From: an uncultured Anaerolineales bacterium
GTDB lineage: Bacteria; Chloroflexota; Anaerolineae; B4-G1; SLSP01
Length of the DNA stretch: 64,000 nucleotides
Direction of reading: 5' to 3'
Assembly: GCA_964504195.1 (NCBI GenBank)
Contig: CAZDDI010000005.1
Coordinates: 1,175 to 65,174, forward strand
The notes under the pieces are model-generated. The model saw nothing but the letters and a program-made list of their open reading frames with translations. It had not been told where the DNA came from and did not search any database. Shown one piece after another: positions 1,608-34,078 of this stretch. A program made the position numbers and the translations under genes. Positions within the stretch are counted from its first letter, which is position 1. Each line of letters begins with the position of its first letter.

Positions 1608-2069
1608 TGCAAAATAACAGCTAACCCAAGTTGCTACTTATTCGCTAGAATCTTTATAGGACATGGATTCTACGGATAAGAACAAAAAAATCCGCCTAGT
1701 CCGCAGAATCCGTGTCCTGAACCCTGAATCAACCGTGGCAACTTGGATTACATGTGGGATGCACAGAAATTCATTCATAGGTATTGCCACTAAATCCGCT
1801 AAACCTAAAGAGGCGTAAATTGCAGTAAATGTTATTCTCGATTTGCATCGACGACATCCTATGTGATACAATGATTTTAGAATAGTGAATATTCTCCGCT
1901 AATGCTTTGTCAAGCGTAATTTGAGAGGTAATACTGATTATTTTACGGCTAAATTAAAATTTTGCAGTTTCTTGTTTTGCACTTGACAGAACACTTAGAG
2001 ACAAAAGTAACCTTCTAATTCAGTAGGAAACCTTCAAGCCTACAACACTCCAAATAGAACTGGGGAAAA

Positions 2070-2115
2070 GGGGAGGATTTAGAACGCTGTGGCGTTCTAA
2101 ATCCTCCCCTTTTTT
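2070..2115 (+). terminator. Rho-independent terminator (18-bp perfect stem, TGTG loop, T6)
   Basis: GGGGAGGATTTAGAACGC-tgtg-GCGTTCTAAATCCTCCCC followed by TTTTTT. A TTGACA hexamer at 1983-1988 upstream could drive a short transcript ending here. Confidence 0.6.
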
Positions 2116-2128
2116 GTTAGCTGTTTTT

Positions 2129-2352
2129 AATAACAGTAGTTACGCGGTCGAAGCAGGTGGGGCGCACTTTTGACACTAAAACAGCATATTTGCTGCATCA
2201 ATAACGCAATTTGGGTTGGTTTTAAGTGCGGCCCACCTAAGGAATGGGTACGAAATAACTTATCCATTTGAACTCCAAATTGCGCCTGAAACGTCCAGAA
2301 AGCGGGACACTTATTTCGTACTCATTCCTAAACCGCGCAACTACTGTAATAA
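2129..2352. repeat. Nested-palindrome structured element (MITE-like or structured-RNA-like), ~225 bp
   Basis: Outer inverted repeat ACAGTAGTTACGCGGT (2133-2148) / ACCGCGCAACTACTGT (2332-2347). Inner hairpins AGGTGGGGCGCAC (2153-2167) / GTGCGGCCCACCT (2227-2239) and GGAATGGGTACGAAATAA (2241-2258) / TTATTTCGTACTCATTCC (2311-2328). Confidence 0.45.
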
Positions 2353-2552
2353 CTGAAACCAAAGTTTCCCTTTTGAGGTTTTTTCTGACTTTCTGAGAAC
2401 AATTGAAGGAGGTTAGTTAGTTATTTTTCAATGTATCACTTTATTGGATTTGACACAAGTATAACAAAAAAAATCAAAACACTCGATATTTCCCAACCAA
2501 AGACACAACATTTGACATAGAAACCTTAACTACAAATAGAAGAGGAGCGATA

Positions 2553-2759
2553 ATGCAAAACAGTGACTCGTCTTTACAAGATGCTTTATTTCACAATTCA
2601 CTTGTAGAAGTGTTGACTGAAATGGCTAAAAATTACATGCAACAATTAAGATTAGCCAGGAAAGGAAACAGTGTAATTAATAACGACGAAATGACAGGAG
2701 TTAAGGAAAGCAAAGGAATATTTATAACCCAGGTCGAAAACAACGCTGTAAGCTGCTAG
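2553..2759 (+). CDS. Small hypothetical protein (68 aa) in the AT-rich island
   Basis: ORF with a GAGGAG Shine-Dalgarno 6 nt upstream and a TTGACA at 2513-2518. A palindrome CGGGGATC-tagc-GATCCCCG at 2815-2838 lies downstream. No recognisable domain. Confidence 0.3.
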   Translation: MQNSDSSLQDALFHNSLVEVLTEMAKNYMQQLRLARKGNSVINNDEMTGVKESKGIFITQVENNAVSC

Positions 2760-3090
2760 AGGTAAACTCAGTAGATTACAGTTTGCTCGAATTGGATTGC
2801 AATATCCAGCCCAGAACGGGGATCTAGCGATCCCCGTTGAATATTTCGTGATCCACTGAAACTGGCTTGTGCCATAAAATCTTCATCAATTTTACTCACA
2901 CTGGTATCAATGCCTGTGCTACAAGGCTACGCCGGGCAAATCCGGCTTTACAACCGCGTAGACGAAGTGTTGTACTGTAGTCTCGTGATCGCTCACTAGG
3001 CGGGGTATTCATGTCGAATACTTTATGACAATAACCAAGTTTTCAGACAGGGAAGAAGTTTGTCTCAAAATTTCAAAGCATATATAGCAA

Positions 3091-3122
3091 GCACAATGTT
3101 GTTGATAACATTGTGCTTTTTT
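3091..3122 (+). terminator. Rho-independent terminator
   Basis: GCACAATGTT-gttgat-AACATTGTGC followed by TTTTTT, in AT-rich intergenic DNA. Confidence 0.5.
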
Positions 3123-3606
3123 ATAGTTACCCTCTTGTTATCAAAACAAATACATCTGCAATATACTCGAAAATTGAAATAAGAATTAATCATTGATAAC
3201 ATACAGTTGTTTTGTGTAAACAATCATACTAAAACCTCGCAGATTTTAATGTGAAATTGATACGTTACCTTGTCGTTTTGTAACAACAATTTCATCCTCA
3301 AGACTTCCACAGAACTTAGTAGAAATTTCTAGGCTTTCTGGAATTCGTATCAAGCTAACAGACTTAAGATAGAGAGAATTCACTCAAATCGAACAGTGTG
3401 AATAACTCTATTACCAGGAGATGATTTAATGGGAAATGTCTGGGGGTGGCTAAGAGCATCTAGCGTTTTTACGCAGCGTTGCTTTGTGTTGTTGCAAAAA
3501 ACCGTTTTTGGGGCACCCACTATCATTATAGCTGGTGACTTACTAAAATCCTCTATCTGTTCAATCACTGTTAAAAATCAGCATTTGGATGATAAGGCGG
3601 ATTACC

Positions 3607-4221
3607 ATGCAAACCCTGCGTAACACCTTCTCCGAACTCCTGGCCTGGGTGATAGCCGGCCTGCTCGTGGCTTGTATTGTGTGTTGCGTTATTCCTTATC
3701 TCGATACGACCATCCAGGACGCGCACTTGTGGTTTGCTACACCCCGGCCCACGCCGATAGCTGTGGTGCTGGATTTTGCGCCCGAAGACGAAGTGGGCGC
3801 ACGGGAAACGGTATATGCCTGGCTGCAAGCCCAGCAGGACTTAACGGCTCTTCCTACGCTTGATTTGGAAACCCGCGCCTATTACCTCGCTGGCGAAGCC
3901 CCCCGCTTGCGCCAGGGCGACTGGCCGATGTGGTATGGCCTGCGGTATGCCGTCGGCCCCGCTTCAGGCGCCTGGTTGTATTACTGGCCGGGCTGCCCGC
4001 CGTGCCCCGCGGGGTCTGCCTGTATAGCTTTGCCCAACAGCCCCCGCCCGAGCCTAGCCACCTTTGCCTACCCTGGTTTGTCCACCGCGCCCGAGGTGGG
4101 CGCGGCGCTGGCCTGGCGCGAGGAGCAAGCCTATATCGCGGTAATCTGGCCCGGCGTGTGTCCGCCGCCCGCGCCGGAACCCACCCGGCCTTACGTCGGC
4201 CCGACCGGGCCGGGCCAGTGA
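3607..4221 (+). CDS. Hypothetical membrane-anchored Pro/Cys-rich protein
   Basis: ORF 3589..4221. The ATG at 3607 has an AAGGCGG Shine-Dalgarno 6 nt upstream. N-terminal hydrophobic helix. The high-GC region begins here. Confidence 0.5.
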   Translation: MQTLRNTFSELLAWVIAGLLVACIVCCVIPYLDTTIQDAHLWFATPRPTPIAVVLDFAPEDEVGARETVYAWLQAQQDLTALPTLDLETRAYYLAGEAPRLRQGDWPMWYGLRYAVGPASGAWLYYWPGCPPCPAGSACIALPNSPRPSLATFAYPGLSTAPEVGAALAWREEQAYIAVIWPGVCPPPAPEPTRPYVGPTGPGQ

Positions 4222-4233: not shown

Positions 4234-4809
4234 ATGCCCTTACCAGTTACTTCTCCTAGTCCCCTGGTGCGCGCTGCTTGGTCGCCGGATGTCGGCTATT
4301 GGCAACTGGCGCAGAGTAGTGTGCTCCCGGCGTTCAAGCGCCTGGCGGCGGGGAAGCGGGATGCCGACGCACTCCTGTGCGCCGCCTTTAGTCCCCTGGT
4401 ACATTTGGTGTTGGAATTGGCGCTGGAACGGGGCATGGCCGGGTTGCCTAGTTTTTTGCGCGGCTTGACCCGCCCGCCCCGCCCGGAGAGCGCGACCCAC
4501 TGGGTGACGCCCGGCGCGGCCTGGAAATGGTTGCAAACATTACCGGCGGGCGAGGTCGCCGCGGTGTTTGACCTGCGCCCCGGCGGCGGGCCGGAATTGG
4601 ATACCTGGCCCTACGCGCCGCTCCTGGATCAGCAGGGGCGTATCCCGGAATTTCACCAGGAATTGTTACCGCTGGTGTTAAGCGTGTTGCAGGGCTGGGG
4701 CGCGAGTGTATTACTGATACCGCCGGCGCATACCCCGTTGCCCGTAGCACAGGCGCAGTGGGCAGCGTTATGTCAGGCGGCATCACCAGCCGGGAAGCGG
4801 GCCGGGTGA
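4234..4809 (+). CDS. Hypothetical protein
   Basis: 191-aa ORF with a GGAG Shine-Dalgarno, immediately downstream of the previous gene. No recognisable motif. Confidence 0.45.
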   Translation: MPLPVTSPSPLVRAAWSPDVGYWQLAQSSVLPAFKRLAAGKRDADALLCAAFSPLVHLVLELALERGMAGLPSFLRGLTRPPRPESATHWVTPGAAWKWLQTLPAGEVAAVFDLRPGGGPELDTWPYAPLLDQQGRIPEFHQELLPLVLSVLQGWGASVLLIPPAHTPLPVAQAQWAALCQAASPAGKRAG

Positions 4810-5159
4810 TACGCATTGCCCGCAAGCCGGGGTATGCGGCACGCGCTGCGGGTTTTCGTAACGGGCTATTTCGTGCCGCATACCCCCGCAATGCAGCGGT
4901 GGGGCTAAGCAGCGGAATATCAATCATTTTTACCCGTTTATTCGCGGTTTTTACGCCCATAACCGGCTTGTGGGCCACCTTGAGGAAGCGGAGCGTGACC
5001 CGTCTCGTGGGGGAGTGGCGGCTGGGTGGGGGGAATGCGGCACAAGGACAAGTTAGCCGTAATTGCCTGGTTTGTGCCGCATACGACCCCGGTTATTACC
5101 CGGGTTGACCCCGGTTGTACGGCGGCTCAGACACCGGGTTTCGACCAATGGCGACCCGC

Positions 5160-6010
5160 GCAAGCACGTCGGGGGTGACGCTAATAGGCAATGGTTATGC
5201 CCGGTTGCTACCCAGATAGCCCGCGCCAACGTCTAGGGTTACGCTGATGGGCTGCGGCTATTCGCGGTTGCCACCGGCGGCTCATGATAGTGCCTGGCGT
5301 CACACGGGCCAAGTCAACCCTGGTTTCCAGTGGCATCCCATGTAAACACGCCGGGGGATAGCGCTGATAGGCAATGGTTATGCCCGGTTGCCACCCGGAC
5401 AGCCTGCGATAACGCCCAGGTGGCTTTGATAGGCAACGGTTTTTCACCGGCGCCCCATGTAAGCACGCGGGGGATGGCGCTGATGGGCCGCGATTATTCG
5501 CCGTTGCTACCCGGATAGCCCGCGCTAATGCCGGGGGTGGCTTTGATAGGCAATAGTTTTTCACTGGCGGGCCGCGCGCGCGTTCTGGGTTACGCTGATG
5601 CGCCACGGCTATTCGCGGTTGCCACCGGCGGCGCATGATACTGCCTGGCGTCACACGGGCCAAGTCAACCCTGGTTTCCAGTGGCATCCCATGTAAACAC
5701 GCCGGGGGATAGCGCTGATAGGCAATGGTTATGCCCGGTTGCCACCCGGACAGCCTGCGATAACGCCCAGGTGGCTTTGATAGGCAACGGTTTTTCACCG
5801 GTGCCCCATGTAAGCACGCGGGGGATGGCGCTAACGCCGGGGGATGCGCTGATGCACGGTGGTTATTCGCGGTTACCACCAGCGGCCCGCGCGCGCGTCC
5901 AGCGTAACGCTGATGCGCCGCCGCTATTCGCGGTTGCCACCCGGATAGCCTGCGCTAACGCCCAGGTGACGCTGATAGACAACGGTTTCTCATGGGCGGC
6001 CCGCGCGAGC
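5160..6010. repeat. Complex tandem repeat array: ~13 degenerate 50-65-bp units organised into a ~351-bp higher-order repeat (about 1.7 copies, ~5233-5830)
   Basis: Recurrent unit GGGG[AT]T[AG]GCGCTGAT[AG]GGCAA[CT]GGTT.T.CCCGGTTGCCACCCGGA[CT]AGCC.GCG.TAACG. The identical spurious ORFs starting at 5330 and 5681 show the 351-bp period. No unique spacers, so it is not CRISPR-like. Confidence 0.7.
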
Positions 6011-6053
6011 GCCGGGGCCGTCCGGCTCAGTACCCTGTACAGGAGGTGCAAAG

Positions 6054-6488
6054 ATGCACCATGATGCCCCGCAGTTCATTCGGTATCTCGTCGCCCTCAC
6101 CGGGGGCGATCCGTGCCTGACCCAGATTCCGCGCGGGAAACATCCCCTGCGCATCCACACCCAGCGCGTGGGCGCTGTCCGGCTGGTCACCGTCGCGCCG
6201 GGTAGCGACCCCTTGCCCGAGGTGGATGAAACCGCGCTCAGCCCGCTGGTGGCCGCGCCCGGCACGGTGCTCTTGCGGGGGATCATCGCGGGGGTGCGCG
6301 ATACAGCCGCGGCGGACCGCGCGCTGTGGCTGACGCTGCCCGGCGCGGGGGCCGTGCCGCTGGTGGCAGCGGATGCGGACATTGCCGTGACCCTGCGCGG
6401 TTTGCTCCGCCGGCCCGTGATTGTGCGCGGCGTGTGCGCGGCACAGGGGATTGTTGTTCACATGGTGCAGGCGGAGGTCGCGCCGTGA
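6054..6488 (+). CDS. Hypothetical protein (144 aa)
   Basis: Strong AGGAGGT Shine-Dalgarno 7 nt upstream of the ATG, immediately after the repeat array. GC-rich codon usage. Confidence 0.55.
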   Translation: MHHDAPQFIRYLVALTGGDPCLTQIPRGKHPLRIHTQRVGAVRLVTVAPGSDPLPEVDETALSPLVAAPGTVLLRGIIAGVRDTAAADRALWLTLPGAGAVPLVAADADIAVTLRGLLRRPVIVRGVCAAQGIVVHMVQAEVAP

Positions 6489-6659: not shown

Positions 6660-7184
6660 ATGCGAACTAAGATCGGCAGCGGGCTATTCCTGGCCCTCGT
6701 GGTGTTACCCCTGCTCATCGGCTATGTGACTGCGCCGTGTGATGCCTGGGGGGTGCCCGTAGTGTTGTCCCCGTACCGGCTGCGGCAGGCGCGCTATCTT
6801 GCCCAGGTTACGCGCTGGACGGACGCGGTGGCCGAAGTCGGCGCGACGCTAGACACCCTGGCCGCCGCGCCCGCGCCGCAGTCCACCAGCGCCGCGTTCC
6901 GCCTGGCGGAACAGGTTGGGCAAGCCGCTCAGCAGTTGGCGACCCTCGCGCCACCCCCCGCGCCGGCGGAGTATAGCCTGCTGGCGCTCCTGCTGGAACA
7001 AACGCGGGACACCTATGCGTATGCAGCGGAGCAATTGCTGGTCTTCTATGGCACCCAAGACCCGCAAGCGCTGGCCGCGGCGCACGTCTCGCTGGATTTA
7101 GCCGCGGCGGCCCTGGCGGAGGCGCGGGCCGGCAGTGCCGGGCTGACCTATCCGCTGTGCCGCGAGGTGTGGCATGAGCGGTGA
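6660..7184 (+). CDS. Hypothetical secreted protein (N-terminal signal-like hydrophobic segment)
   Basis: AAGGAGGT Shine-Dalgarno. MRTKIGSGLFLALVVLPLLIGYVTA signal-like N-terminus. Ala-rich. Confidence 0.55.
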   Translation: MRTKIGSGLFLALVVLPLLIGYVTAPCDAWGVPVVLSPYRLRQARYLAQVTRWTDAVAEVGATLDTLAAAPAPQSTSAAFRLAEQVGQAAQQLATLAPPPAPAEYSLLALLLEQTRDTYAYAAEQLLVFYGTQDPQALAAAHVSLDLAAAALAEARAGSAGLTYPLCREVWHER

Positions 7185-8418
7185 GCCGCCTGCCGCCGCG
7201 GCGGAAGCGCCGGCCATTGAACTAGAACTGCTCCGCGCACAACTGCGCAGTTGCCAAATGCGGCTGACCGGGCAGACCCGCGCCTATCAGCAGGCGGTGG
7301 CGGCGCTGCAGCCCTATCTGGAAACGCTGTTCCCCCAGGTATTCCCGCAGGCGTTGGCTCAGGGCTTGTCGGTGGTCACGGCGGGCGAGTATTGTTACCA
7401 GTACCACCTGCACGGCACTGATCCGCGGGAGCTCTTTGCCGGCGCGGAGGCGTCCCCGGCGGCGGCCCCCACAGCGGCGGCGGGGGCAGACGCGGGCGTG
7501 CCCCTGTCCGGCGACGCGGTGAAGTTCTTGTTCGCCGCGGGGCAGCAGGTGGTGTCCACCGCGATCAAAGCGCAGTGGGCGCAGCTCGCGGGCAAAGCGG
7601 TCAGCACGGCGAAGAACACGGTGCTGCCGGAACTGCTGGATAAAGGCTTACTGCGCGTGGAGCACATCCCGGCCCCCCGGTATCTCACCGGCTACGCCAG
7701 CGATGTCTGTTATGTGTTGACCGCAGCCGGGCGCGCGGAGCATCAGCGGCGGTTCAGTTGCGAGGCTGTGGACTACGCGGCCGCGTATGCCCCGCACAAA
7801 TCACCGGAAGCCTGGTGGCAGGTGCGCGCAGTCCAGGCGTTGGTGTTAGCGGGCAATACGCTGCCCGGCAACCAGCGCTGCACCTACGCGGTTTACGACC
7901 CCACCGGCGAGCCGGAAACAGCGGCGGAGGCCGGCTTTCAGCGGCGCTATGGGCAGAGCGAACCGGATGTCATTGTGGTCGTCACTTCGCTGTCACAGGG
8001 ACAGCCGAGCCGTATCGCGGTGGAGTCCGAGCGCGGCACTTACAACCCCACGCGCCTCAAGGCCAAGTTGCTCAAGAACTTGCAAGACTACGGCGCGGCA
8101 GGCTTCAGCGGCTGCTACTACATCGCCAACAACGGCGATACCGCTAGCAGCATCGCCGGGGCGCTCACCAAACTGCGCGCCGACCTCAAAGCGCACCCGG
8201 AAGCCGTGAGTACGCGCGGGTTTCTGGCCCTGTTCACCCTGGATGCGCTCAAAGACGCCTGGCTGCCTACGCCGCACTTCATTGACGCCGAGTTCTTCGA
8301 CCGGCAGACGCGGCGCGTGAGCGACCGCTGGCCGGCAGACGCGGCCAAGCCGGAGCGCTACTTCCGCTTTGCGCCCAAGGGCCAGGATGAAGGTGGCGGG
8401 GAGCGGGGGATGGGGTGA
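7174..8418 (+). CDS. Hypothetical protein, possibly a replication-relaxation / PD-(D/E)xK-like nuclease-fold protein (tentative)
   Basis: 414-aa ORF that overlaps the upstream gene by 11 nt (translational coupling). Segment EPDVIVVVTS...RIAVESERGTY resembles a PD-(D/E)xK core. Sits in a module with replication genes. Confidence 0.45.
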   Translation: MSGEPPAAAAEAPAIELELLRAQLRSCQMRLTGQTRAYQQAVAALQPYLETLFPQVFPQALAQGLSVVTAGEYCYQYHLHGTDPRELFAGAEASPAAAPTAAAGADAGVPLSGDAVKFLFAAGQQVVSTAIKAQWAQLAGKAVSTAKNTVLPELLDKGLLRVEHIPAPRYLTGYASDVCYVLTAAGRAEHQRRFSCEAVDYAAAYAPHKSPEAWWQVRAVQALVLAGNTLPGNQRCTYAVYDPTGEPETAAEAGFQRRYGQSEPDVIVVVTSLSQGQPSRIAVESERGTYNPTRLKAKLLKNLQDYGAAGFSGCYYIANNGDTASSIAGALTKLRADLKAHPEAVSTRGFLALFTLDALKDAWLPTPHFIDAEFFDRQTRRVSDRWPADAAKPERYFRFAPKGQDEGGGERGMG

Positions 8419-8724: not shown

Positions 8725-8913
8725 ATGTGCGTACCGAAGTTTTCGTGGGGCCGGCGCTGGGCCGGCCGCCTGTGGCGCGGCGGCGGACGCCTGCTGATGC
8801 GACTGGCGTTGGGGTGTATCACGTTGGGCGAGGCGCTGGCCGATTGGGGCTTGCGCTGCGCCATTTGGGGGAGCGGGGATGATCAACAGCAGCCGGGAGG
8901 CCCGGCATGTTGA
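8725..8913 (+). CDS. Small Arg/Trp-rich hypothetical protein (62 aa)
   Basis: AAGGAAAGGAG Shine-Dalgarno upstream. Overlaps the start of the next gene. Confidence 0.3.
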   Translation: MCVPKFSWGRRWAGRLWRGGGRLLMRLALGCITLGEALADWGLRCAIWGSGDDQQQPGGPAC

Positions 8914-10154
8914 CGCCGCGGCTGATGCAGCAGGCGCTCGCTGACCGGCTGGCGGGGCAAGCCGTGCCGCCCGTCAATCTGGCGCAGTGGAGCGAACCCT
9001 GGGCCAGCTGTTGGCGCGCGCTGGACGCCGCCGCGCCTGACGCACCGGCGCATACGGCCTTGTTCCAAGCGTTGGCCGACCGGCCCGACCGCGACCGGCT
9101 CATCGAAGCGCTCTTCAAACTGCAACCGGGCGCGCCAGCCCAGTATCCCACCCTGCAAGAACTGGCGGAGGGCCTGGCCCCTATTGCCTGGCTGTGGCCG
9201 GGCTGGATTCCGCGCGGGATGCTGACGCTCTTTGGCGCGGTGCCCGGCGTGGGCAAGTCGCTGGTGGCGCTGGATTTGTGCCGGCGCATTATCCACGGGA
9301 CCTCCTTCCCCGATGCCGCCCCCGTGGCTGCGCCCGGCGGGCCGGTGCTCTATGTGGACGCCGAGGCCGTGCCGCAGATCACGCACGAACGCGCCGCGGC
9401 CTGGCAGTTGGATATGCGCCGCCTGTACCTGATGTTGCCCGCTGGCGATGCGCTGCTGGACTTTGGGCGGGCCGCCGACCGCGACCGCCTGGTGGAAATG
9501 GTGTATACCCTGCGCCCGGCGCTGGTCATCGTAGACAGCCTGTCATCCGTGACGAGCAAGAGCGAGAACGCCGTCGAGGATGTGCGCGCGCTGTTGGGCT
9601 TTTTCGCCGGGTTAGCGCGGGAATACGCGCTGGGGCTGGTGCTGATCCACCACGCGCGCAAGCGGGGCCTGACGCTGGGCGGGGCCCCGCTGTTTACGCC
9701 CATCACGCTCGACGATTTCCGGGGCAGCGGCCACATCGTCGCGATGGCGCGCTCGGTGTTGGGCTTATCTGTGGTGCAGAATGGGCCGCAACCGGACAGC
9801 AATGGCCCGCGCCAACTGGAAGTCATCAAGAGCAACCTGGCGCGTGTCCCCGCGCCACTGGGCTTCGACCTGGTGGACGTGCCGCCGGCGGGCGTGGCAC
9901 TCCAGTGGGGCGCAGCGCCGCAGCCCTGGCAAGCACCGACCAAGTTGGATGAGTGCCGCCTGTGGTTGGCGACCTGGTTGCGCGAGGCGGCTGAGCCGTT
10001 AGCACCGAAGGAGATTGTCGCGGCCGCCCAGAGTCTGGGCTTCAGCCGCGCGATGGTGTTCCGGGCGCGGGAAGCGTTGGGCGAGCAGGTCCGCAACACG
10101 TCCGGGCGGCGAGATCCGCAGAACTTGTGGGGGTGGAACGGGGAGCAGTCCTAA
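8907..10154 (+). CDS. RecA-fold P-loop NTPase of the RepA/AAA_25 type (mobile-element replication or helicase-loader-like)
   Basis: Walker A GAVPGVGKS. Walker B-like LVIVDSL. LIHHARK motif typical of phage, plasmid and ICE RepA-like ATPases. Confidence 0.7.
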   Translation: MLTPRLMQQALADRLAGQAVPPVNLAQWSEPWASCWRALDAAAPDAPAHTALFQALADRPDRDRLIEALFKLQPGAPAQYPTLQELAEGLAPIAWLWPGWIPRGMLTLFGAVPGVGKSLVALDLCRRIIHGTSFPDAAPVAAPGGPVLYVDAEAVPQITHERAAAWQLDMRRLYLMLPAGDALLDFGRAADRDRLVEMVYTLRPALVIVDSLSSVTSKSENAVEDVRALLGFFAGLAREYALGLVLIHHARKRGLTLGGAPLFTPITLDDFRGSGHIVAMARSVLGLSVVQNGPQPDSNGPRQLEVIKSNLARVPAPLGFDLVDVPPAGVALQWGAAPQPWQAPTKLDECRLWLATWLREAAEPLAPKEIVAAAQSLGFSRAMVFRAREALGEQVRNTSGRRDPQNLWGWNGEQS

Positions 10155-10290
10155 CAGTCTCAAGAGTTCACTGTATTGGCACACCCCCCTGGGGCGCGCC
10201 CGGCGTTGAAACGCTGAGACAGTGAGATAGTTGCGACAGTAAGACAGTGGCGGGGGTACTGTCTCACTGTCGCAAGAGTTCACTGTTTTG
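10155..10290. promoter_or_regulatory. Cluster of at least 7 ACAGTG/CACTGT hexamer motifs with direct and inverted repeats; putative operator, iteron or origin region
   Basis: Direct repeat CAAGAGTTCACTGT at 10161-10174 and 10273-10286. GACAGT appears three times at 10218, 10235 and 10243. Inverted GAGACAGTGAG / CTCACTGTC. Confidence 0.35.
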
Positions 10291-10424
10291 ACCCCCACCG
10301 TCCGCTACCAGGGGTGTGCCCATGGGCGGGAGACAGTGACCTGCCGCGCGTTCGGCGTGGGAGGCGTTGTCGCGCGCCACCTGCGCTCGACGGCGCAGCA
10401 TGGCCCCCACACAGCTACCCCGGC

Positions 10425-10451
10425 TAATAATAATAATAATAATAATAATAA
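10425..10451. repeat. (TAA)9 microsatellite in an AT-rich tract ~48 bp upstream of the primase start codon
   Basis: Perfect trinucleotide repeat in an otherwise ~68% GC context, followed by TTTATATCTATTTATCTATCCC. Confidence 0.9.
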
Positions 10452-10498
10452 TTTATATCTATTTATCTATCCCTATCTCGCTCAGAAAGGCCCGGCCT

Positions 10499-11560
10499 AT
10501 GCCTGCTATTACCTGCCTCCCGACCCTGATTGCCACTATCAAAGCCCGGCTCGACCTGGCCGAACAGGTCATCATTCCCGACCTCGGCTCGCCGCAGACT
10601 CGCGGCCAACGGTTGGCCTGGCGCTGTCCGTTCCATGCGGATCATAATCCCTCGCTGTATCTCACGCCCGACGGCCAGGCGTACCGCTGCTTCGGCTGCG
10701 GCGCGCGGGGCGACGCCTTCACCTGGCTCATGGCGCGGCGCGGTTGGCCGTTTCGGAAGGCGCTGACCTACCTGGCCGACCTGACCGGGGTGGCGCTGGA
10801 TGACAACCGATCCCCGGCGCAAGCGGCGAAAGTCCCCGCACCGCCCAATGTGCAACCCCCTGGCGCGACCTGGCAAGCACGGGCGCGGCTATTGCTGGCG
10901 CGGGCGCAAGCGTTGTTGGAGGAGGACGCGGGCGCGGTAGGCCGGGCTTATTTGCAGGCACGAGGCTTGCAAGCACCCACCTGGCAGACGTGGGGCTTGG
11001 GCTGGTGTCCGCGCGAGGTGTTCGAGCCGCCGGAACGGTGGGGGTTGACGGGGAAGCAGATTTATCTACCGCGCGGTGTAGTGATCCCCCACTTTGTCGC
11101 TGGTGACCTGTGGGCGTTGAAAGTACGCCGCTTTGTGGGGGATACCCCGGTAACTGCTGACCAGGGCGGCAAGTACGGCGGGCCGCGCGGGGGACAGATT
11201 GCGCTCTACGGCGTGGACTTGCTGCGCGGCGGCGACCGCCCGTTGTTCCTGGTGGAAGCCGAGTTGGATGCGCTGCTGCTCTGGCAAGCAGCGGGCGACC
11301 TGGTGGACGCAGCGGCCCTGGGCAGCGCCAGCCGGACGTTGCCCGCGCGCTGGCTGGCGGCGTTGTTGCCGTATCCGCGCATCTATGCCGCGCTGGACGC
11401 CGACGGCGCGGGGACGCTGAACGCGGCGCGGCTGGCGGAGATCTCGGCGCGGATTACGTCGGTGCGGGTGCCGGCCGGCAAGGATATGACGGAGTATGGG
11501 CAAGGAGGCGGGGACGTGAGGGAGTGGGTGGAGATGGTGATGGGAATTGCAGAAAGATGA
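10499..11560 (+). CDS. DnaG-like DNA primase (CHC2 zinc finger + Toprim), mobile-element type
   Basis: CPFHADHNPSLYLTPDGQAYRCFGCGARGD is a CHC2 zinc finger. Downstream EAELDALL...ALDADGAG is Toprim-like. The annotated ORF start at 10367 would read through the (TAA)n run as Ile9; the ATG at 10499 is preferred. Confidence 0.75.
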   Translation: MPAITCLPTLIATIKARLDLAEQVIIPDLGSPQTRGQRLAWRCPFHADHNPSLYLTPDGQAYRCFGCGARGDAFTWLMARRGWPFRKALTYLADLTGVALDDNRSPAQAAKVPAPPNVQPPGATWQARARLLLARAQALLEEDAGAVGRAYLQARGLQAPTWQTWGLGWCPREVFEPPERWGLTGKQIYLPRGVVIPHFVAGDLWALKVRRFVGDTPVTADQGGKYGGPRGGQIALYGVDLLRGGDRPLFLVEAELDALLLWQAAGDLVDAAALGSASRTLPARWLAALLPYPRIYAALDADGAGTLNAARLAEISARITSVRVPAGKDMTEYGQGGGDVREWVEMVMGIAER

Positions 11561-11575: not shown

Positions 11576-12589
11576 TTACGCAGAACCGTTCCCCTGAGTA
11601 ATTCGACCGGCTACGTCTTGGTAGTGAGCCGCCGCTGCCGGATCGCCGACTGCCATGTACGCTTCGACCAGCCGCTTCAGGATGATGCGCCGGCAGGGCT
11701 GGTTGTCGGTGCGAGTCGTGATCTCCAATCCGGCGTGCAGGTGTTCCAGCGCCAACTCAAGTTGCCCCAGGGTCAGATAGGTCGCGCCCAGATTGCAGCG
11801 GATGACACCTTTTCCGGGCAAATCCGCCTCGGCCTGTGCAATCTCCAACGCTGCAAGGAAGTAGGGCAAAGCCGCTTGTGGGTGTTGATCCCGGAGTAGC
11901 GCGGTCCCCAGAAAATTGGCAGCGGATTTGATGCGCGGTCGGTCGCCGGCGGTGCGCGCTACGGCCAGCCCGGCGGTGAAATGCTCCGCCGCTGCGCCGT
12001 AGTCCGCAGCCTGTAAAGCGATCCGCCCCCGCAGGATGTGTACATCGGCGATGACCTCGGCCTCGCCGCGTTGCTCGGCCAACTGCTGTGTTTCTGGCAA
12101 CCAGGCCGTGGCCTTTTCCGATTTCCCCAACAGAAACCAGGCTTGCGCCAGATCCATGAACACGCGCGCTGCCGGAGCGGGGTAGTGCAGCGCGCGCACC
12201 AGGGCAGACGCAGCTTCGAGACAGCGCGCCGTCTCGGCATACTCGCCCAGGCGCATACACACTTCGGAGAGGTGCTGCTGCAACCAGAGCGTCAACAACG
12301 GATCATCCGTAGGCGCGCGTTGGACGAAATACTGCAAACACGCGCGCCAGGGCGCCCATTGCCCCTGATAGATCATGTAGCGATGCAGGCTGTGCGCCAG
12401 CGCCGCGCCTACGCTGCGGGTGGCGACGTGGGCGGCGCAGTGCTGTAATGTGTGGAGGATATTGGCTTGCGCCTGAGTCAACGCGGCGGGATCGGCCTGA
12501 TGCGCGTGGATGTAGGTTTGCCAGTACGCGCCGGCGCGGGCGATGCTGGCCTGGTAGACCTGCTGGCGTTCTGTGAGGGTTTCCATCAT
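11576..12589 (-). CDS. TPR-repeat protein, the C-terminal partner of a split STAND NTPase
   Basis: Multiple TPR-like helical repeats. Start MMETLTERQ overlaps the upstream stop in an ATGA arrangement. The ORF's listed start at 12670 lies inside the upstream gene. Confidence 0.6.
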   Translation of the reverse strand: MMETLTERQQVYQASIARAGAYWQTYIHAHQADPAALTQAQANILHTLQHCAAHVATRSVGAALAHSLHRYMIYQGQWAPWRACLQYFVQRAPTDDPLLTLWLQQHLSEVCMRLGEYAETARCLEAASALVRALHYPAPAARVFMDLAQAWFLLGKSEKATAWLPETQQLAEQRGEAEVIADVHILRGRIALQAADYGAAAEHFTAGLAVARTAGDRPRIKSAANFLGTALLRDQHPQAALPYFLAALEIAQAEADLPGKGVIRCNLGATYLTLGQLELALEHLHAGLEITTRTDNQPCRRIILKRLVEAYMAVGDPAAAAHYQDVAGRITQGNGSA

Positions 12590-14076
12590 ATGATAGGTTC
12601 GACGTCTGGCGCAGGCTGCACCAGCTCCGAGAGGATGAAGTTGCGCGTGAGCGGGTGGATGCTGTAGCACTTCTGGAGCGCATCCCCGCCGATTTCCAGC
12701 AGCGAGAGCCGCGCCAGCTCCCGGACCCCGGCGAGGGTTTGACGCTCATCCAGCCCACCGATGGCGACCAGGGCCTCCCACGGCCCGCCGGTCGTCGCCA
12801 GCAAGGGCAGGCTCAACAGGAGCTGGCGCGCGTCCGCTGAAAGCAGCTCCCAGGCCGCCCAGTAGATGAAGCGGTAGAAGGTCTCCAGATCGCCCCGTGC
12901 CTCGGCGATCTCCGCCAGCACTTGCGCCAACGGGCGCAGCGCCGCCTGCCCCACCACCAGTTTGAGCGCCAAGGGATTGCCGCCGGTCGCCTGATAGATG
13001 CGCGCCAGAATGGCATCATCCGCCTCCTGCAAAGCGCGCTCTCCCCGCTCCTGCGCGTGATAGCGCAACAACGCCGTCGCCGCAGCCGGCGGCAGCGCGC
13101 CCACATGCACGGAGGTGGCCTGCTCGAAGGTATCCAGGCGGTAGCGGCTGGTGATGAGCACCTTACTAGGGCCGGTAAGTGCCCAGAGTTCCTGCGCTAG
13201 AGCGCGATAATCGGCGGCGGTTTCCAGATTGTCCACCACCACCAGGTAGGGCTGCGCGTGGAGCAGCGCGTGCAAGGCTTCTCGCTTCTTGCCGCTGGGC
13301 CAGGCCGTGAAATGGGGGTTTCCGGTCTGCCGCGCGATGCTATTGAGCAGTTCATCCACGGTGAGCGCGGGCGCGGTAGAGAGCTGCACCTCGCTCCAGG
13401 CAAAGACCTGGCGCTGTGCAGTCTCCCAAACCAGGTGGGCGAAATCGCCTGCCTCTAGCGCTGCCAGCGCGACTGCGCGCGCCAGGGCGGTTTTGCCCAT
13501 GCCGCCCAGGCCATCCAGCACCACGAAGCGATGGCGCTCCGGCGCAGCGAGGAAATCGCGCGCGCGGGCCAGCAACGGCTCAACGCCGAACAGGCGGGTG
13601 TAGGTGGGTGGGGGCAGGTGTGCGCGCCAGGCGGCGGTTGGGGATTGGGGAGCGCTGTGCGCCCCGGCGATGCTATGATTTTCCCATTGGCACAGGAGCG
13701 CAGCGACTTGCTCAATACCTTGAGCCAGGTCGCGGTAATATTGCGCGCGGCTGACGTGCAACCGTGACGGGATGTCTTTGGGCGCGCTGCCCTGTTGGTA
13801 GGTTTGGGTGAGCGCCGTGTAGACGCGCAGGGCCGGGGCAGTATTCGCGGTATTGTCCGGCGGTTTCAACAGCGCCAACGCCTCATCGAGCAAAGCCTGC
13901 ACCAGCTGCCCGACTAGCACGGGTGTTACCTCTAGCCCTTCCGGCAACCGTCGCTGCACGAGATGCAGAGAGGCCAGCTCGCAAGCACCCAGAAAGGGCA
14001 GATCGTGATAGTGCTGCAAGGCCGCTTTGACGCGCGCCGCATCCGAAACCGCTGGTTGATGGGGTGGCAAATTCAT
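12586..14076 (-). CDS. STAND-class NTPase (NB-ARC/AAA domain) with an N-terminal helical domain
   Basis: Walker A VLDGLGGMGKTALA, followed by an NB-ARC-like arm. Confidence 0.65.
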   Translation of the reverse strand: MNLPPHQPAVSDAARVKAALQHYHDLPFLGACELASLHLVQRRLPEGLEVTPVLVGQLVQALLDEALALLKPPDNTANTAPALRVYTALTQTYQQGSAPKDIPSRLHVSRAQYYRDLAQGIEQVAALLCQWENHSIAGAHSAPQSPTAAWRAHLPPPTYTRLFGVEPLLARARDFLAAPERHRFVVLDGLGGMGKTALARAVALAALEAGDFAHLVWETAQRQVFAWSEVQLSTAPALTVDELLNSIARQTGNPHFTAWPSGKKREALHALLHAQPYLVVVDNLETAADYRALAQELWALTGPSKVLITSRYRLDTFEQATSVHVGALPPAAATALLRYHAQERGERALQEADDAILARIYQATGGNPLALKLVVGQAALRPLAQVLAEIAEARGDLETFYRFIYWAAWELLSADARQLLLSLPLLATTGGPWEALVAIGGLDERQTLAGVRELARLSLLEIGGDALQKCYSIHPLTRNFILSELVQPAPDVEPII

Positions 14077-14087
14077 CCTGTATCCAG

Positions 14088-14182
14088 TCTCAGTAGATCA
14101 CGATTTAGGCTCGTAGTGACGGCTTCAGCTGTTGGGAGAACCGCTAAAGCGGTCACTACCAACAGATCCGTGATCTACTGAG
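14088..14182. promoter_or_regulatory. Nested inverted repeat in a divergent promoter region
   Basis: TCTCAGTAGATCACG (14088-14102) pairs with CGTGATCTACTGAG (14169-14182), about 66 bp apart. An inner GTGACGGCTT / AAGCGGTCAC pair lies between them. Confidence 0.3.
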
Positions 14183-14302
14183 TCTAGGCAAAGTGTCACC
14201 TGGGTATTATACAACAAAGAGACACTTTGAGAAAATGAAGAGACACTAAGAGACACAAAATCGGTTAAGATAGAGAAAGGTTGCAAAATCAAGGAAGGGG
14301 AT

Positions 14303-14884
14303 ATGTCCTGGCTCACACTTTACAAAGTTGTGCAATGGCTCATTTTTAGCGTCTTCATTGTTTTCATTTCCGACCACCGCAAAAAGAACCCGGCTACGCC
14401 GCTGATTGATAAACGCTTGCTCCTGATGATGAAACTCTGCTATCCCATTACCTGCGTCATTCACGGCTATGTCATCACGACGATCCCACAAGTGCGCTGG
14501 ATTGACCTGGTGGCATTGGGTTGTGCGGCCATCGGTACCACGCTCATCGTTAGGTCGAAAATTGATCTAGGGCGCTATCATGCCTGGACGGGCTACTTCG
14601 CCGATATGCCGGAGTTTGTGACGCAGGGTATCTATGCCTATATGCGCCATCCGCTGTATGCCGGCATCAATATCTTCATCGCCGGAGATCTGCTCATTAT
14701 GAGCGGTCACGCTCCCTGGCAACTGACGCTGGTGATGGCCGCCATTTTGAGCTATATCATGTTCTTCACCACGCTCTCGGCGGTGCGGGAGACCCGGCAA
14801 CTGGCCGCTAAATTTGGGGCGCGTTTCGTGGCATATCAACAGCAGGTACACCCTTTTTTACCGCTGCGCAGATTTGATGCGTGA
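14303..14884 (+). CDS. Isoprenylcysteine carboxyl methyltransferase (ICMT) / phospholipid methyltransferase-family membrane protein
   Basis: Multi-transmembrane protein with MRHPLYAG (RHPxY) and an E/R-containing C-terminal motif typical of ICMT/PEMT. GC is lower than in the flanks. Confidence 0.7.
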   Translation: MSWLTLYKVVQWLIFSVFIVFISDHRKKNPATPLIDKRLLLMMKLCYPITCVIHGYVITTIPQVRWIDLVALGCAAIGTTLIVRSKIDLGRYHAWTGYFADMPEFVTQGIYAYMRHPLYAGINIFIAGDLLIMSGHAPWQLTLVMAAILSYIMFFTTLSAVRETRQLAAKFGARFVAYQQQVHPFLPLRRFDA

Positions 14885-14990
14885 GCTTGCAAACGGCAAA
14901 ACCCGGCGTGCTTGCACTTTGCGCTGTTTAGGTATACTTAATTTGATAAACCTTTGAAACATTCATGCTTCTATCATAGCGAGGTATACC

Positions 14991-29482: not shown

Positions 29483-29520
29483 GGACATGGCTCAAAACCC
29501 TGGAGAAGTCAGTTTGACAC
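29483..29520 (+). mobile_element. Solo terminal inverted repeat related to the IS at 36929-38532
   Basis: GGACATGGCTCAAAACCCTGGAGAAGTCAGTTTGACAC is ~34/36 identical to the reverse complement of that IS's right IR. The tip faces outward, to the left. Confidence 0.6.
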
Positions 29521-29541
29521 TTTCTGAAATAAGGAAATCTT

Positions 29542-31032
29542 ATGAACACAGCAAATTATATTTTACAATATGGTCAAGACGAAACTATAGCAATTATCAC
29601 AGAAAAATCCCAATATACCTACAAAGATCTGCGGAGTGCTGTGAACAAAATCGCTACCAAAATTCTAAGTATTGGAATTCTGCCTGGCGATGCAGTTGGA
29701 CTGCTTAGCGCAAACTCTTTGTTTTGGGTGGCTTCATATTTAGCCATTATGAAAATAGGGGGTATTGCAGTACCCTTTTCAACAACTTTGACAACAAAAC
29801 AATTTCAGCAAGCAGAGAGTTTTATTAAATGTAAGGCGATTTGTTTGCAGGAACTTTATCGTAGTAGATATGTGAGTGCATTAAAAAACAAACTGCCAAT
29901 AGTTAGCGAAAACATCCTGTTACCAACTGATTCAATGACGGTCGAAGAATCGCCGGAGACGGTGATAACTGATCCAGAGCAAGATGCAGCTTTCATGCTA
30001 ACTTCTGGAACAACTTCAGAGCCTAAGGTCGTGAGAGTTTCACATGAGAATATTCAATCGAATACCGAATCAATAATCAGCTATTTGGAAATCACTAATT
30101 CAGATCGCATAATGGTCATTCTTCCCTTCTTCTATTGCTTTGGTACATCTTTGTTGCATACACACTTGAGAGCGGGGGGCTCGCTTGTTATAAGCAATCG
30201 TTTTGCTTTCCCAGAAACCGTATTGAACTTGATGGAAACATATAATTGTACAGGCTTTGCTGGGGTGCCATCTACATATCAGATACTTCTCAGAAATACT
30301 ACTTTTCCCAAGCGTAAGCTGCCAATGTTAAAAAAAATCCAACAAGCTGGGGGAAAACTACCTTCTGTTCTCATAAAAGAGTTAAGGGCTATTTTGCCGG
30401 ATTCTAACATCTATATTATGTATGGACAAACAGAAGCTACAGCTCGACTATCGTATTTACACCCCGAAATGCTTGAAAGAAAATTAGGTTCAATAGGCAA
30501 GGGAATTCCAGGTGTTGAGTTGCGTGTAGTAGGAAGTCAAGGTATTGATGTTAGCCACGGTGAAGTTGGTGAAATCGTTGCAAAAGGAAAGAACATCACA
30601 AAAGGGTACTTGAATGATCTGCAAGCAACTGCGGTGAAGTTTAGAGACGGTAATCTGTATACAGGAGATTTAGCTACAGTAGATGAAGATGGCTTTATCT
30701 ATATCGTTGATCGTTCGAGTGATTTTATTAAATCATATGGACATCGAGTTAGTAGTCAACAGATTGAAGGTTGCATTTCAGAACTTCAAGATGTTATAAG
30801 CACAGCAGTTATTGGTGTTCAAGACGTTGTTCGAGGAGAAGCTATAGTAGCTTATGTAACTTTACATAAGAAATCTATTCTTTCTTCTGAGAATATAATC
30901 GCACACTGCAGACAAACACTACCAAGTTATATGATTCCGCGTGATGTGATCGTAGTAAGTGATCTGCCTATGAACGAACAGGGAAAGATATTGAAATCGG
31001 CACTCAAACAACAAGTCTTGGGTGAATTGTAG
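29542..31032 (+). CDS. AMP-dependent synthetase/ligase (acyl-CoA or acyl-ACP synthetase family)
   Basis: MLTSGTTSEPK (AMP-binding core), YGQTEA, and YTGDLA...DEDGFIYIVDRSSDFIKSYG motifs. AT-rich codon usage. Confidence 0.8.
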   Translation: MNTANYILQYGQDETIAIITEKSQYTYKDLRSAVNKIATKILSIGILPGDAVGLLSANSLFWVASYLAIMKIGGIAVPFSTTLTTKQFQQAESFIKCKAICLQELYRSRYVSALKNKLPIVSENILLPTDSMTVEESPETVITDPEQDAAFMLTSGTTSEPKVVRVSHENIQSNTESIISYLEITNSDRIMVILPFFYCFGTSLLHTHLRAGGSLVISNRFAFPETVLNLMETYNCTGFAGVPSTYQILLRNTTFPKRKLPMLKKIQQAGGKLPSVLIKELRAILPDSNIYIMYGQTEATARLSYLHPEMLERKLGSIGKGIPGVELRVVGSQGIDVSHGEVGEIVAKGKNITKGYLNDLQATAVKFRDGNLYTGDLATVDEDGFIYIVDRSSDFIKSYGHRVSSQQIEGCISELQDVISTAVIGVQDVVRGEAIVAYVTLHKKSILSSENIIAHCRQTLPSYMIPRDVIVVSDLPMNEQGKILKSALKQQVLGEL

Positions 31033-31049
31033 AGGGAGTTTAATATTCT

Positions 31050-33035: not shown

Positions 33036-33055
33036 GCTGTTTTTAGGAGAGAAAT

Positions 33056-34030: not shown

Positions 34031-34078
34031 TCGAATTCTTAAATGTTTCTAAATCAATGACCCAGGGAGTGTAAGAAC

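What the first reader, a model, noticed from the sequence alone, without database searches (positions are those of the whole stretch)
5160..6010. Non-coding higher-order tandem repeat array upstream of a mobile-element-like replication module
About 13 degenerate 50-65-bp units share the core GCTGATRGGCAAYGGTT.T.CCCGGTTGCCACCCGG (containing GGCAA-N13-TTGCC dyad symmetry). They are organised into a 351-bp higher-order unit present about 1.7 times. Nothing credible is coded. ORFs in the region are repeat artefacts. The array directly precedes genes leading to a RepA-like ATPase and a primase, so it may be an iteron or centromere-like protein-binding array.
Basis: seen in the sequence. Interest (0 to 1): 0.6.

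Follow-up and report, generated by a model that had tools for sequence, protein, structure and literature searches.

The report
Lineage-specific repeat array before replication genes
A real, non-coding array of about 13-15 degenerate 52-63-bp repeats sits in the control region just before the replication genes of an integrated mobile element of an Anaerolineae bacterium. Nearly all related elements lack it, and the likely replication origin lies elsewhere, so it is best read as a lineage-specific expansion of a duplication-prone regulatory spacer, not a proven iteron or centromere.

Summary
Window 5125-6017 is a non-coding tandem array of 12 clear monomers plus 1-3 degenerate ones, with a 351-bp higher-order repeat whose copies are 95% identical. 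Independent assemblies span it almost identically.

It lies inside a conserved gene module of an uncharacterised Anaerolineae integrative element: p210, p191, intergenic region, p144 (OB-fold-like), p174, p414 (winged-helix plus nuclease-like), RepA-like helicase, DnaG-like primase.

About 28 of the roughly 30 related loci have a 90-350-bp intergenic region here, holding one or two conserved palindromes (two in most) and no array. Two other lineages amplified the same region independently, with unrelated units of 75, 402 and 594 bp.

The monomers have no significant match elsewhere in the window, in the relatives, in the palindromes or in the origin-like repeats. They show no coding, RNA-structure or promoter signal, and no detectable motif constraint.

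The family-wide origin-like region (90-121-bp repeats plus an AT-rich tract) lies between RepA and the primase, at window 10151-10460.

Best reading: a lineage-specific expansion of the replication operon's control or leader DNA that acts in cis. Whether a protein binds it is untested. The iteron-origin and centromere readings are unsupported. Interest is modest.

The parts
5125..6017 (.). Whole tandem array. It has 12 clear monomers (starts 5180, 5243, 5363, 5425, 5479, 5542, 5594, 5714, 5776, 5848, 5909, 5971), all in one orientation, plus a degenerate unit from about 5125. Three monomer types occur: A has the left and right motif, B the left motif only, C the right motif only.
   Evidence: unit alignment and per-column conservation
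5221..5571 (.). Higher-order repeat, copy 1 (351 bp).
   Evidence: family D1: 5221-5481 is 95% identical to 5572-5832 at 351-bp spacing
5572..5922 (.). Higher-order repeat, copy 2. The first 261 nt are 95% identical to copy 1 and the rest has diverged. One assembly (L062) lacks exactly one 351-bp copy.
5905..6017 (.). Partial third higher-order copy: an A/C-type plus a B-type monomer, 76% identical to 5359-5471. It runs into the p144 leader.
   Evidence: family D5
4826..4889 (.). Palindrome IR1 (18-nt arms, 28-nt centre), just after the p191 stop codon. It is conserved across the family.
   Evidence: pair I1; fold z-score -4.4; equivalents in relatives
5028..5089 (.). Palindrome IR2 (18-nt arms). 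In relatives it lies about 60-195 nt before the p144 start codon; here the array separates the two.
   Evidence: pair I4; fold z-score -1.9
3589..4221 (+). p210, a conserved element gene with a predicted membrane segment. No family match.
4234..4809 (+). p191, a conserved element gene that bounds the intergenic region on the left. No family match.
6054..6488 (+). p144, the first gene after the array. The predicted fold resembles an OB-fold nucleic-acid-binding domain.
   Evidence: AF2 model pLDDT 72; Foldseek hits to the Asp/Lys-tRNA synthetase anticodon-binding domain and the PolD DP1 OB domain, probability 0.97-1.0 but E about 0.02
6660..7184 (+). p174, a conserved gene with an N-terminal hydrophobic or lipoprotein-like segment.
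7174..8418 (+). p414, the family marker gene. The model shows a coiled coil, a winged helix and a PD-(D/E)xK-like nuclease fold. It is the best candidate for a site-specific DNA binder.
   Evidence: PaqCI nuclease domain probability 0.99, E 3e-3; PadR and MukE/F winged-helix hits
8907..10154 (+). RepA-like AAA_25 ATPase/helicase.
   Evidence: PF13481, E 4e-32; phrog_239 primase/helicase
10151..10460 (.). Origin-like region. It holds about 1.5 copies of the family's 90-121-bp repeat (10151-10187 and 10263-10299, period 112), an 18-nt palindrome (10231-10248 with 10258-10275) and a (TAA)n AT-rich tract at 10425-10455.
   Evidence: arrays at this position in relatives
10367..11560 (+). DnaG-type primase (CHC2 zinc finger plus Toprim). 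The true start is probably downstream of the (TAA)n tract.
   Evidence: tblastn alignments to relatives begin at residue 40-54

Best explanation
The array is a lineage-specific tandem expansion (a minisatellite with a higher-order structure) of the non-coding control or leader region of the replication operon of an integrated Anaerolineae mobile element.

In the family at large this roughly 330-bp region carries two conserved palindromes (IR1, IR2) and a short leader before p144. In this lineage, repeated unequal duplication inserted about 0.9 kb of 52-63-bp monomers between IR2 and the p144 ribosome-binding site.

Inferred, not shown: it acts in cis on expression or control of the downstream operon (p144, p174, p414, RepA, primase). 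It would do so either as reiterated binding sites for an element-encoded or host DNA-binding protein, with p414's winged helix the best candidate, or simply by separating the palindromic control sites from the operon with a 0.9-kb leader.

It is not the replication origin, which most likely lies in the RepA-primase spacer. It is not a partition centromere either.

Shown: the anatomy, the position, the non-coding nature, the lineage specificity, recurrent amplification of the same region in other lineages, and the separate origin-like region.

Inferred: any regulatory effect and any protein binding.
For: - The array lies within a conserved gene order shared by about 45 protein clusters and more than 40 loci of Anaerolineae/Chloroflexota.
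- The p191-to-p144 spacer is about 1.24 kb here. It is 308-353 bp in most relatives, about 220-280 bp in L016 and L068, and about 90-120 bp in L017.
- IR1 and IR2 are present in the window and in the relatives, and the array sits between IR2 and the Shine-Dalgarno sequence and ATG.
- The same spacer was amplified independently in two other lineages. L027/L028 has 402 bp x3.6 plus 75 bp x4. L026 has about 594 bp x4 or more plus a 159-bp-spaced duplicate. The unit sequences are unrelated.
- Monomers differ by up to 30-40% while the higher-order copies differ by 5%, so the array is old and has been retained.
- Independent assemblies agree on the sequence.
- No coding signal. No Rfam hit even at E<=1. 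No excess RNA fold stability for the higher-order unit, with z +1.1 and -0.1, or for most monomers.
- Origin-like repeats plus an AT-rich tract lie elsewhere, at 10151-10460 and at the same position in relatives.
- p414 has a winged-helix domain.
Against: - No direct evidence of binding or of any regulatory effect.
- A test for position-specific constraint among monomers was negative (P=0.33, low power).
- The dyad is intact in only a minority of monomers.
- Helical phasing of the monomer starts is not robust.
- No sigma-70-like promoter excess, so the transcription start is unknown.
- Close relatives do without the array, so whatever it does is dispensable for the element family.
- One assembly lacks a 351-bp copy. 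This fits a neutral variable-number repeat as well as it fits a functional one.
Confidence: 0.45

Rival explanations
1. Functionally neutral minisatellite. The hairpin-rich control spacer is a mutational hot spot for slippage or unequal recombination. The array is a tolerated by-product with no sequence-specific or regulatory role.
For: - Amplifications recur in the same spacer with unrelated units of very different length: about 60, 75, 402 and 594 bp.
- It is absent from about 28 of the roughly 30 related loci, including the closest.
- No detectable constraint on particular monomer positions.
- No promoter, RNA or coding signal.
- Possible copy-number polymorphism in L062.
- Independent tandem-repeat formation at homologous loci is documented in other mobile elements, the Borgs (PMC9879509).
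Against: - Monomers have diverged by up to 30-40%, so the array has persisted for a long time in a compact element of about 9.5 kb core, despite the deletional bias usual in bacteria (my inference).
- It sits exactly between the conserved control palindromes and the ribosome-binding site, where 0.9 kb of extra leader is unlikely to have no effect on expression.
Confidence: 0.3
2. Iteron-type array bound by the element's initiator. It would be either the origin itself or a copy-number or incompatibility locus that handcuffs with the origin, like P1 incA or F incC.
For: - Tandem direct repeats adjacent to a replication operon, with palindromes next to them. This recalls the layout of operator inverted repeat, iterons and rep gene in iteron plasmids (general knowledge; PMC5397158, PMC13028717).
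- The family does use tandem repeats in its origin-like region.
Against: - Monomers are 52-63 bp, against the usual 17-22 bp.
- No AT-rich tract lies at the array. The AT tract and the family-conserved repeats are in the RepA-primase spacer.
- The array motifs do not occur in that origin-like region or anywhere else in the 64 kb, even with 3 mismatches allowed. Handcuffing needs shared sites.
- No significant similarity to IR1 or IR2 or to the origin repeats.
- Absent from nearly all relatives.
Confidence: 0.1
3. Centromere-like partition site in the manner of F sopC: tandem repeats, each carrying a dyad, that load a centromere-binding protein.
For: It resembles sopC in shape. sopC has 12 direct repeats of 43 bp, each with a 16-bp inverted repeat (PMC3177203). 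Here there are 12-15 repeats, some with a GGCAAYGG-N7-CSGYYGCC dyad.
Against: - No ParA/ParB, ParM/R or TubZ/R-type gene lies in the conserved module.
- The only ParA/MinD-like ATPases in the window are the CpaE-like 45154-46521 and a weak CbiA match at 42571-43248, both in a Tad-pilus-type cluster about 37-40 kb away.
- The dyad is intact in only 3 monomers and partial in about 4.
- The element is integrated in the chromosome.
- Relatives lack the array.
Confidence: 0.05
4. RNA-level element. The repeats would be transcribed as a long 5' leader or as repeated small RNAs that regulate the replication operon.
For: - Position between the putative control hairpins and the first gene of the operon.
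- The neighbouring IR1 and IR2 fold far better than shuffled controls, and their arms differ between lineages while staying complementary.
- Intergenic tandem repeats in Borgs were proposed to be regulatory RNAs (PMC9879509).
Against: - The higher-order unit and most monomers fold no better than shuffles on either strand.
- No Rfam match even at E<=1.
- No terminator or promoter excess.
- No transcript data.
Confidence: 0.1

Closest known systems
F plasmid sopC centromere (12 x 43-bp direct repeats, each with a 16-bp inverted repeat bound by SopB; PMC3177203)
   Same: A dozen head-to-tail non-coding repeats in a replicon's maintenance region. Some units carry a dyad. The site is unique in the replicon.
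   Different: - No sopA/sopB-type genes nearby.
- The monomers are much more diverged and come in alternating types.
- The dyad is not kept in most units.
- Absent from sister elements.
- No binding shown.
Iterons and iteron control loci of theta-replicating plasmids (F ori2/incC, P1 oriR/incA, RK2 oriV; PMC5397158, PMC13028717)
   Same: Direct repeats next to replication genes, with inverted repeats close by.
   Different: - Units are about three times longer.
- No AT-rich tract or shared sites with the origin-like region.
- No similarity between the repeats and the palindromes.
- The family's own origin-like repeats lie in another spacer.
Intergenic variable-number tandem repeats or minisatellites in bacteria, such as the mycobacterial MIRU-VNTR loci (40-100-bp units between genes of operons; own knowledge, see PMC3294723 for their use in typing)
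   Same: - Unit length of 50-60 bp.
- Intergenic position inside a co-oriented gene string.
- Head-to-tail copies.
- Possible copy-number difference between assemblies.
   Different: MIRUs are dispersed at many loci of one genome, with similar units. Here the unit was found at one locus only, though only 64 kb of this genome could be searched.
Tandem repeats of Borg extrachromosomal elements (PMC9879509)
   Same: Tandem repeats that arise independently and repeatedly at homologous places in related mobile elements, including intergenic regions.
   Different: Borg repeats are near-perfect, recent and A-rich. These monomers are old, degenerate and G+C-rich.

Membership tests
Iteron-type replication origin or control locus | Several direct repeats of about 17-22 bp at regular spacing | tested here: not met
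   The repeats are direct and regular, but the units are 52-63 bp (72 or 120 in places).
Iteron-type replication origin or control locus | Adjacent AT-rich unwinding element | tested here: not met
   The array region is about 64% G+C with no AT tract. The AT tract, (TAA)n at 10425-10455, lies in the RepA-primase spacer.
Iteron-type replication origin or control locus | The same repeat sequence is shared between origin and control locus, or with the operator inverted repeat of the rep promoter | tested here: not met
   The motif halves occur only in the array, even with up to 3 mismatches allowed. A profile search finds nothing else. No significant similarity to IR1 or IR2 or to the origin-like repeats.
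Iteron-type replication origin or control locus | Bound by the cognate initiator protein | not testable with these tools
   Needs EMSA, DAP-seq or ChIP.
Iteron-type replication origin or control locus | Present at the equivalent place in related replicons | tested here: not met
   About 28 of the roughly 30 related loci have a 90-350-bp spacer without direct repeats.
sopC/parS-type centromere | Tandem units each carrying the inverted-repeat binding motif | tested here: inconclusive
   GGCAA-N13-TTGCC is intact in 3 monomers. An 8-nt imperfect dyad is present in about 7 of 12, and the C-type monomers lack it.
sopC/parS-type centromere | Neighbouring partition genes (ParA/ParB, ParM/ParR or TubZ/TubR) | tested here: not met
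   No such Pfam, PHROG or NCBIfam match in p210 through the primase. The only ParA/MinD-like ATPases are the CpaE-like 45154-46521 and a weak CbiA match at 42571-43248, both in a pilus cluster.
Dispersed REP/MITE/MIRU-like repeat | Many copies scattered over the genome | tested here: inconclusive
   No copy outside the array in the 64-kb window or in about 60 related loci. None in the plasmid collection. One chance-level hit in viral contigs. The rest of this genome could not be searched. The metagenome scan used a faulty pattern and does not count.
CRISPR array | Conserved repeats alternating with unique spacers, usually with cas genes nearby | tested here: not met
   All parts of the unit are semi-conserved, with no unique spacers. 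No cas genes in the module.
Structured non-coding RNA repeats | Fold stability above shuffled controls, or a match to a known RNA family | tested here: not met
   z = +1.1 and -0.1 for the 351-nt unit. Monomers give z from -0.7 to +0.95, except U11 (-3.9) and U12 (-1.5). Rfam gives nothing.
Intergenic minisatellite / VNTR | Head-to-tail non-coding repeats whose copy number differs between strains | tested here: inconclusive
   The head-to-tail non-coding structure is met. One assembly (L062) lacks exactly one 351-bp copy, but an assembly collapse cannot be excluded.

The most novel reading that the evidence does not exclude
The p191-p144 spacer may be a new kind of replication-control or immunity region of a previously undescribed family of integrative, self-replicating Anaerolineae elements. 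It would combine palindromes whose arms change between lineages with lineage-specific tandem arrays. The arrays would act as lineage-specific decoy or titration sites that set compatibility between the several related element copies sharing one genome. Two copies lie on one contig (L042 and L053), and two occur in each of two genome bins (L008/L009 and L005/L010).
Probability: 0.1. Interest if true: 0.6.

Novelty: new member of a known kind. Interest (0 to 1): 0.3.

Why it matters
The array on its own is a modest curiosity. Tandem repeats beside replication genes are a familiar theme, and this one is dispensable in its own family.

What it led to is more useful. It exposed an uncharacterised and fairly widespread family of integrated replicative elements in Anaerolineae. 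The family has a conserved module of unknown-function genes, an origin-like repeat region between the helicase and the primase, and a control spacer that has been tandemly amplified at least three times independently.

If the arrays prove to bind an element protein, they would offer a natural series for studying how repeat number and sequence tune replication or compatibility. Chloroflexota have almost no genetic tools or known replicons, so such a series would be valuable.

Tried and rejected
1. Monomers as decayed copies of the IR1/IR2 palindromes. It looked plausible by eye, but Smith-Waterman scores against shuffles were not significant (z mostly below 2).

2. B-type monomer derived from the ancestral leader after IR2. 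There is only a 12-nt match, CGGTTTTTCACC, at p about 0.006 per comparison in some relatives. Nothing appears in the closest relatives. This is suggestive at most.

3. Homology of the monomers to the origin-like repeats of relatives (CCCAGGTG..GATAGGCA by eye). Not significant.

4. Helical phasing of the monomer starts. The result depends on the assumed pitch, so it is not robust.

5. Position-specific constraint among monomers of one type. None detected (P=0.33).

6. RNA structure of the array, Rfam matches and sigma-70 promoter or terminator scans. All negative.

7. Metagenome-wide scan for the unit. The pattern was mis-specified: it had two bases too many between GCTGAT and TAT, as one search showed. 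Its zero result is void. The corrected pattern could only be run on loci already fetched.

8. Searching the protein database with the 223-aa array ORF to find related arrays. No hits, and the ORF itself is not even called, so the result is uninformative.

9. RNAalifold on the IR2 hairpins of 16 relatives. MAFFT misaligned the two loop-length classes, so there was no result. The statement that the arms stay complementary rests on direct reading.

10. Integrase or attachment site. None was found in the window. The left neighbour is ComEC and the only transposase is an IS inside an ldh/mdh gene. Some relatives abut a truncated comM, but most do not.

Full report
**Observation.** Window 5125-6017 is a genuine tandem array.
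- TRF reports period 117, 4.2 copies, score 430 at 5337-5832.
- The repeat finder reports a 261-nt repeat, 5221-5481 against 5572-5832, at 95% identity and 351-bp spacing, and families of 6-10 short units.
- Twelve monomers can be anchored on GCTGAT/TTTGAT at 5180, 5243, 5363, 5425, 5479, 5542, 5594, 5714, 5776, 5848, 5909 and 5971. Spacings are 63, 120, 62, 54, 63, 52, 120, 62, 72, 61 and 62 bp.
- A profile built from them scores each monomer at E 1e-12 to 1e-16 and finds nothing else.
- A degenerate unit precedes them from about 5125, and each 120-bp unit holds a decayed second monomer, giving 13-15 in all.
- Three monomer types occur. A carries both motif halves (TGATAGGCAAYGGTT and TATKCSCGGTTGCCACC). 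B carries the left half only. C carries the right half only.
- The halves occur 10 and 8 times, only inside the array, against 0.65 and 1.05 expected by chance in the 64 kb.
- ORFs across the array have flat GC1/2/3 (.60-.67), while neighbouring genes have GC3 of .72-.85. Nothing is coded.
- JGI contig L058 and ENA contig L060 span the whole spacer with one mismatch in 1501 nt. Several other assemblies break inside the array. One (L062) lacks exactly one 351-bp copy.

**Context.** The array is not upstream of a mobile element. It lies inside one.
- The p414 protein (7174-8418) has about 45 homologous clusters, all 53-79% identical, and the clusters that carry an organism label are Anaerolineae.
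- Genome and metagenome scans returned about 45 loci, the genome records being Anaerolineae or Chloroflexota bins.
- These loci share the order p210, p191, spacer, p144, p174, p414, p93, helicase, primase.
- The helicase is RepA-like (AAA_25, E 4e-32) here and in most relatives. In L007 and L041 a DnaB-like helicase replaces it.
- The primase is DnaG-type.
- The other proteins match no Pfam, PHROG, NCBIfam or PDB sequence family.
- AlphaFold models give p414 a coiled coil, a winged helix and a PD-(D/E)xK-like nuclease fold. They give p144 an OB-fold-like domain. Both rest on weak Foldseek E-values (3e-3 and 2e-2).
- The element is integrated. ComEC lies to the left (423-1607), followed by 2 kb of AT-rich non-coding DNA.
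- To the right lie STAND NTPases and other cargo-like genes.
- Some relatives abut a truncated comM.
- Several bins, and one contig, carry two copies of the element.

**The spacer in relatives.**
- In about 30 loci that hold both p191 and p144, the spacer is 308-353 bp in most. It is about 220-280 bp in the closest relatives L016 and L068, and about 90-120 bp in L017. Here it is about 1.24 kb.
- The ordinary spacer has two palindromes about 130-210 bp apart, with T-tract-rich DNA between them and a 35-195-nt leader before p144.
- The window has both palindromes, IR1 at 4826-4889 and IR2 at 5028-5089. They fold far better than shuffled controls (z -4.4 and -1.9; relatives -2.6 and -5.8).
- Their arms differ between lineages (GGTATGCGGCAC, GTATGACGCAC, GGTATGAAGGAAAAAG, GGCATG...CATGCC) yet remain complementary. 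A central motif, roughly TAGGACAAAAAGGGC, recurs in several lineages (direct reading).
- The array is inserted between IR2 and the p144 ribosome-binding site.

**Recurrence.** Two other lineages have expanded the same spacer.
- L027/L028 carries a 402-bp unit x3.6 (71-81% identical, each unit holding a palindrome) and a 75-bp unit x4.
- L026 carries a unit of about 594 bp x4 or more, plus a duplicate spaced 159 bp apart.
- Unit sequences are unrelated between lineages.
- The spacer is therefore duplication-prone, or repeatedly selected for expansion.

**Where the origin probably is.**
- In many relatives the RepA-primase spacer (up to 2 kb) holds 2-5 tandem units of 90-121 bp, followed by an AT-rich tract just before the primase.
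- The window keeps about 1.5 homologous units (10151-10187 and 10263-10299), a palindrome and a (TAA)n tract at 10425-10455.
- This repeats-plus-AT-tract layout is the usual origin architecture. That it is the origin is my inference.
- The array motifs are absent there.

**What the array is not.**
- It has no Rfam match, even at E<=1.
- It has no excess fold stability for the 351-nt unit or for most monomers.
- It has no sigma-70 promoter or terminator excess.
- It has no CRISPR-like alternation of repeat and spacer.
- It has no significant similarity to the palindromes, to the relatives' leaders or to the origin-like repeats.
- No partition genes lie in the module.
- A permutation test found no position-specific conservation among monomers of the same type (P=0.33). 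Helical phasing was not robust.

**Interpretation.**
- The best-supported account is a lineage-specific, old (monomers up to 30-40% diverged) and retained tandem expansion of the replication operon's control or leader DNA.
- It most likely acts in cis on that operon, either through reiterated protein-binding sites or merely through added length (confidence 0.45).
- A purely neutral minisatellite at a duplication hot spot is the main rival (0.30).
- An iteron origin or handcuffing locus (0.10), an RNA-level role (0.10) and a centromere (0.05) are less likely, for the reasons above.
- Comparators: F sopC (PMC3177203), plasmid iterons (PMC5397158, PMC13028717), MIRU-type VNTRs (own knowledge), and the independently arising tandem repeats of Borgs (PMC9879509).

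**Caveats.**
- The metagenome DNA scan used a faulty pattern (shown). It is not evidence of absence.
- No binding, transcription or replication data exist.

Noticed in passing
window 4826-4889 and 5028-5089; equivalents in L005, L009, L016, L017, L028, L069: Two long palindromes (15-18-nt arms, 20-28-nt centres) are conserved family-wide between p191 and p144. The arms differ between lineages but stay complementary, and a central motif, roughly TAGGACAAAAAGGGC, recurs. They look like operators or RNA/ssDNA hairpins that control the replication operon.
   Followed up: partly
window 10151-10460; L005 11899-12219, L029 9335-9947, L027 7725-8050, L030 11195-11533: The RepA-primase spacer carries tandem 90-121-bp units (1.5-5 copies) and an AT-rich tract. 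This is the probable replication origin of the element family, and its length varies from 165 to about 2000 bp between relatives.
   Followed up: partly
window 10367-10460: The longest primase ORF starts at TTG 10367 and would translate a (TAA)n tract as poly-isoleucine. Alignments to relatives begin at residue 40-54, so the true start is probably after 10460.
   Followed up: partly
L028 740-2890; L026 1-2760: Two other element lineages carry large tandem arrays in the same p191-p144 spacer: 402 bp x3.6 plus 75 bp x4 in L028, and about 594 bp x4 or more in L026. Their unit sequences are unrelated to the window's.
   Followed up: yes
L062 (ENA ERZ27252300), equivalent to window 5482-5832: This assembly of the same element lacks exactly one 351-bp higher-order copy (spacer 894 bp against about 1245 bp). 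It is either a copy-number variant or an assembly collapse.
   Followed up: partly
L042 and L053 (same 227-kb contig); L008/L009; L005/L010: Two diverged copies of the element family coexist in one genome, in one case about 45 kb apart on one contig.
   Followed up: no
L009 5958-6660 (minus strand); L005 4684-5307: In two lineages the element's left end abuts a 5'-truncated comM (Mg-chelatase-like) gene, a known island-insertion hot spot. Other lineages have different neighbours: ComEC here, YdjM in L017.
   Followed up: partly
L007 10838-12148; L041 7485-9002: In some relatives a DnaB-family helicase replaces the RepA-like AAA_25 helicase at the same position. The replication module has been exchanged.
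   Followed up: partly
window 39501-41632: A lactate/malate dehydrogenase gene is split by an IS with a DDE_Tnp_1 transposase (40040-41134, minus strand). The N-terminal half is at 39501-40061 and the C-terminal half at 41234-41632.
   Followed up: no
window 29500-36900: A block of about 40% G+C lies in a genome of 65-70% G+C. It encodes an AMP-binding enzyme, an asparagine synthase, an NAD synthase, two GDSL-type proteins and an acyltransferase, and is probably a separate horizontal acquisition.
   Followed up: no
window 1608-3588: Two kb of AT-rich (about 43% G+C), almost ORF-free DNA lies between ComEC and p210. It includes a perfect terminator-like hairpin near 2065-2110 and a 68-aa ORF at 2553-2759. 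It is probably the element's left arm.
   Followed up: no
window 11576-17801: STAND-type NTPases lie immediately after the primase: a TPR protein, an NB-ARC ATPase and a 936-aa AAA_16-TPR protein with a weak BrxC/D match. They look like defence-type cargo.
   Followed up: no
L007 14022-19108; L005 16143-17984: Downstream of the element, L007 has a CRISPR-like array (37-nt repeat GTCAGAGAGGCTTTAATCCCCGTAAGGGGTCGGAAAC, period about 75). L005 encodes a protein with a Cas10/Cmr2 palm domain.
   Followed up: no
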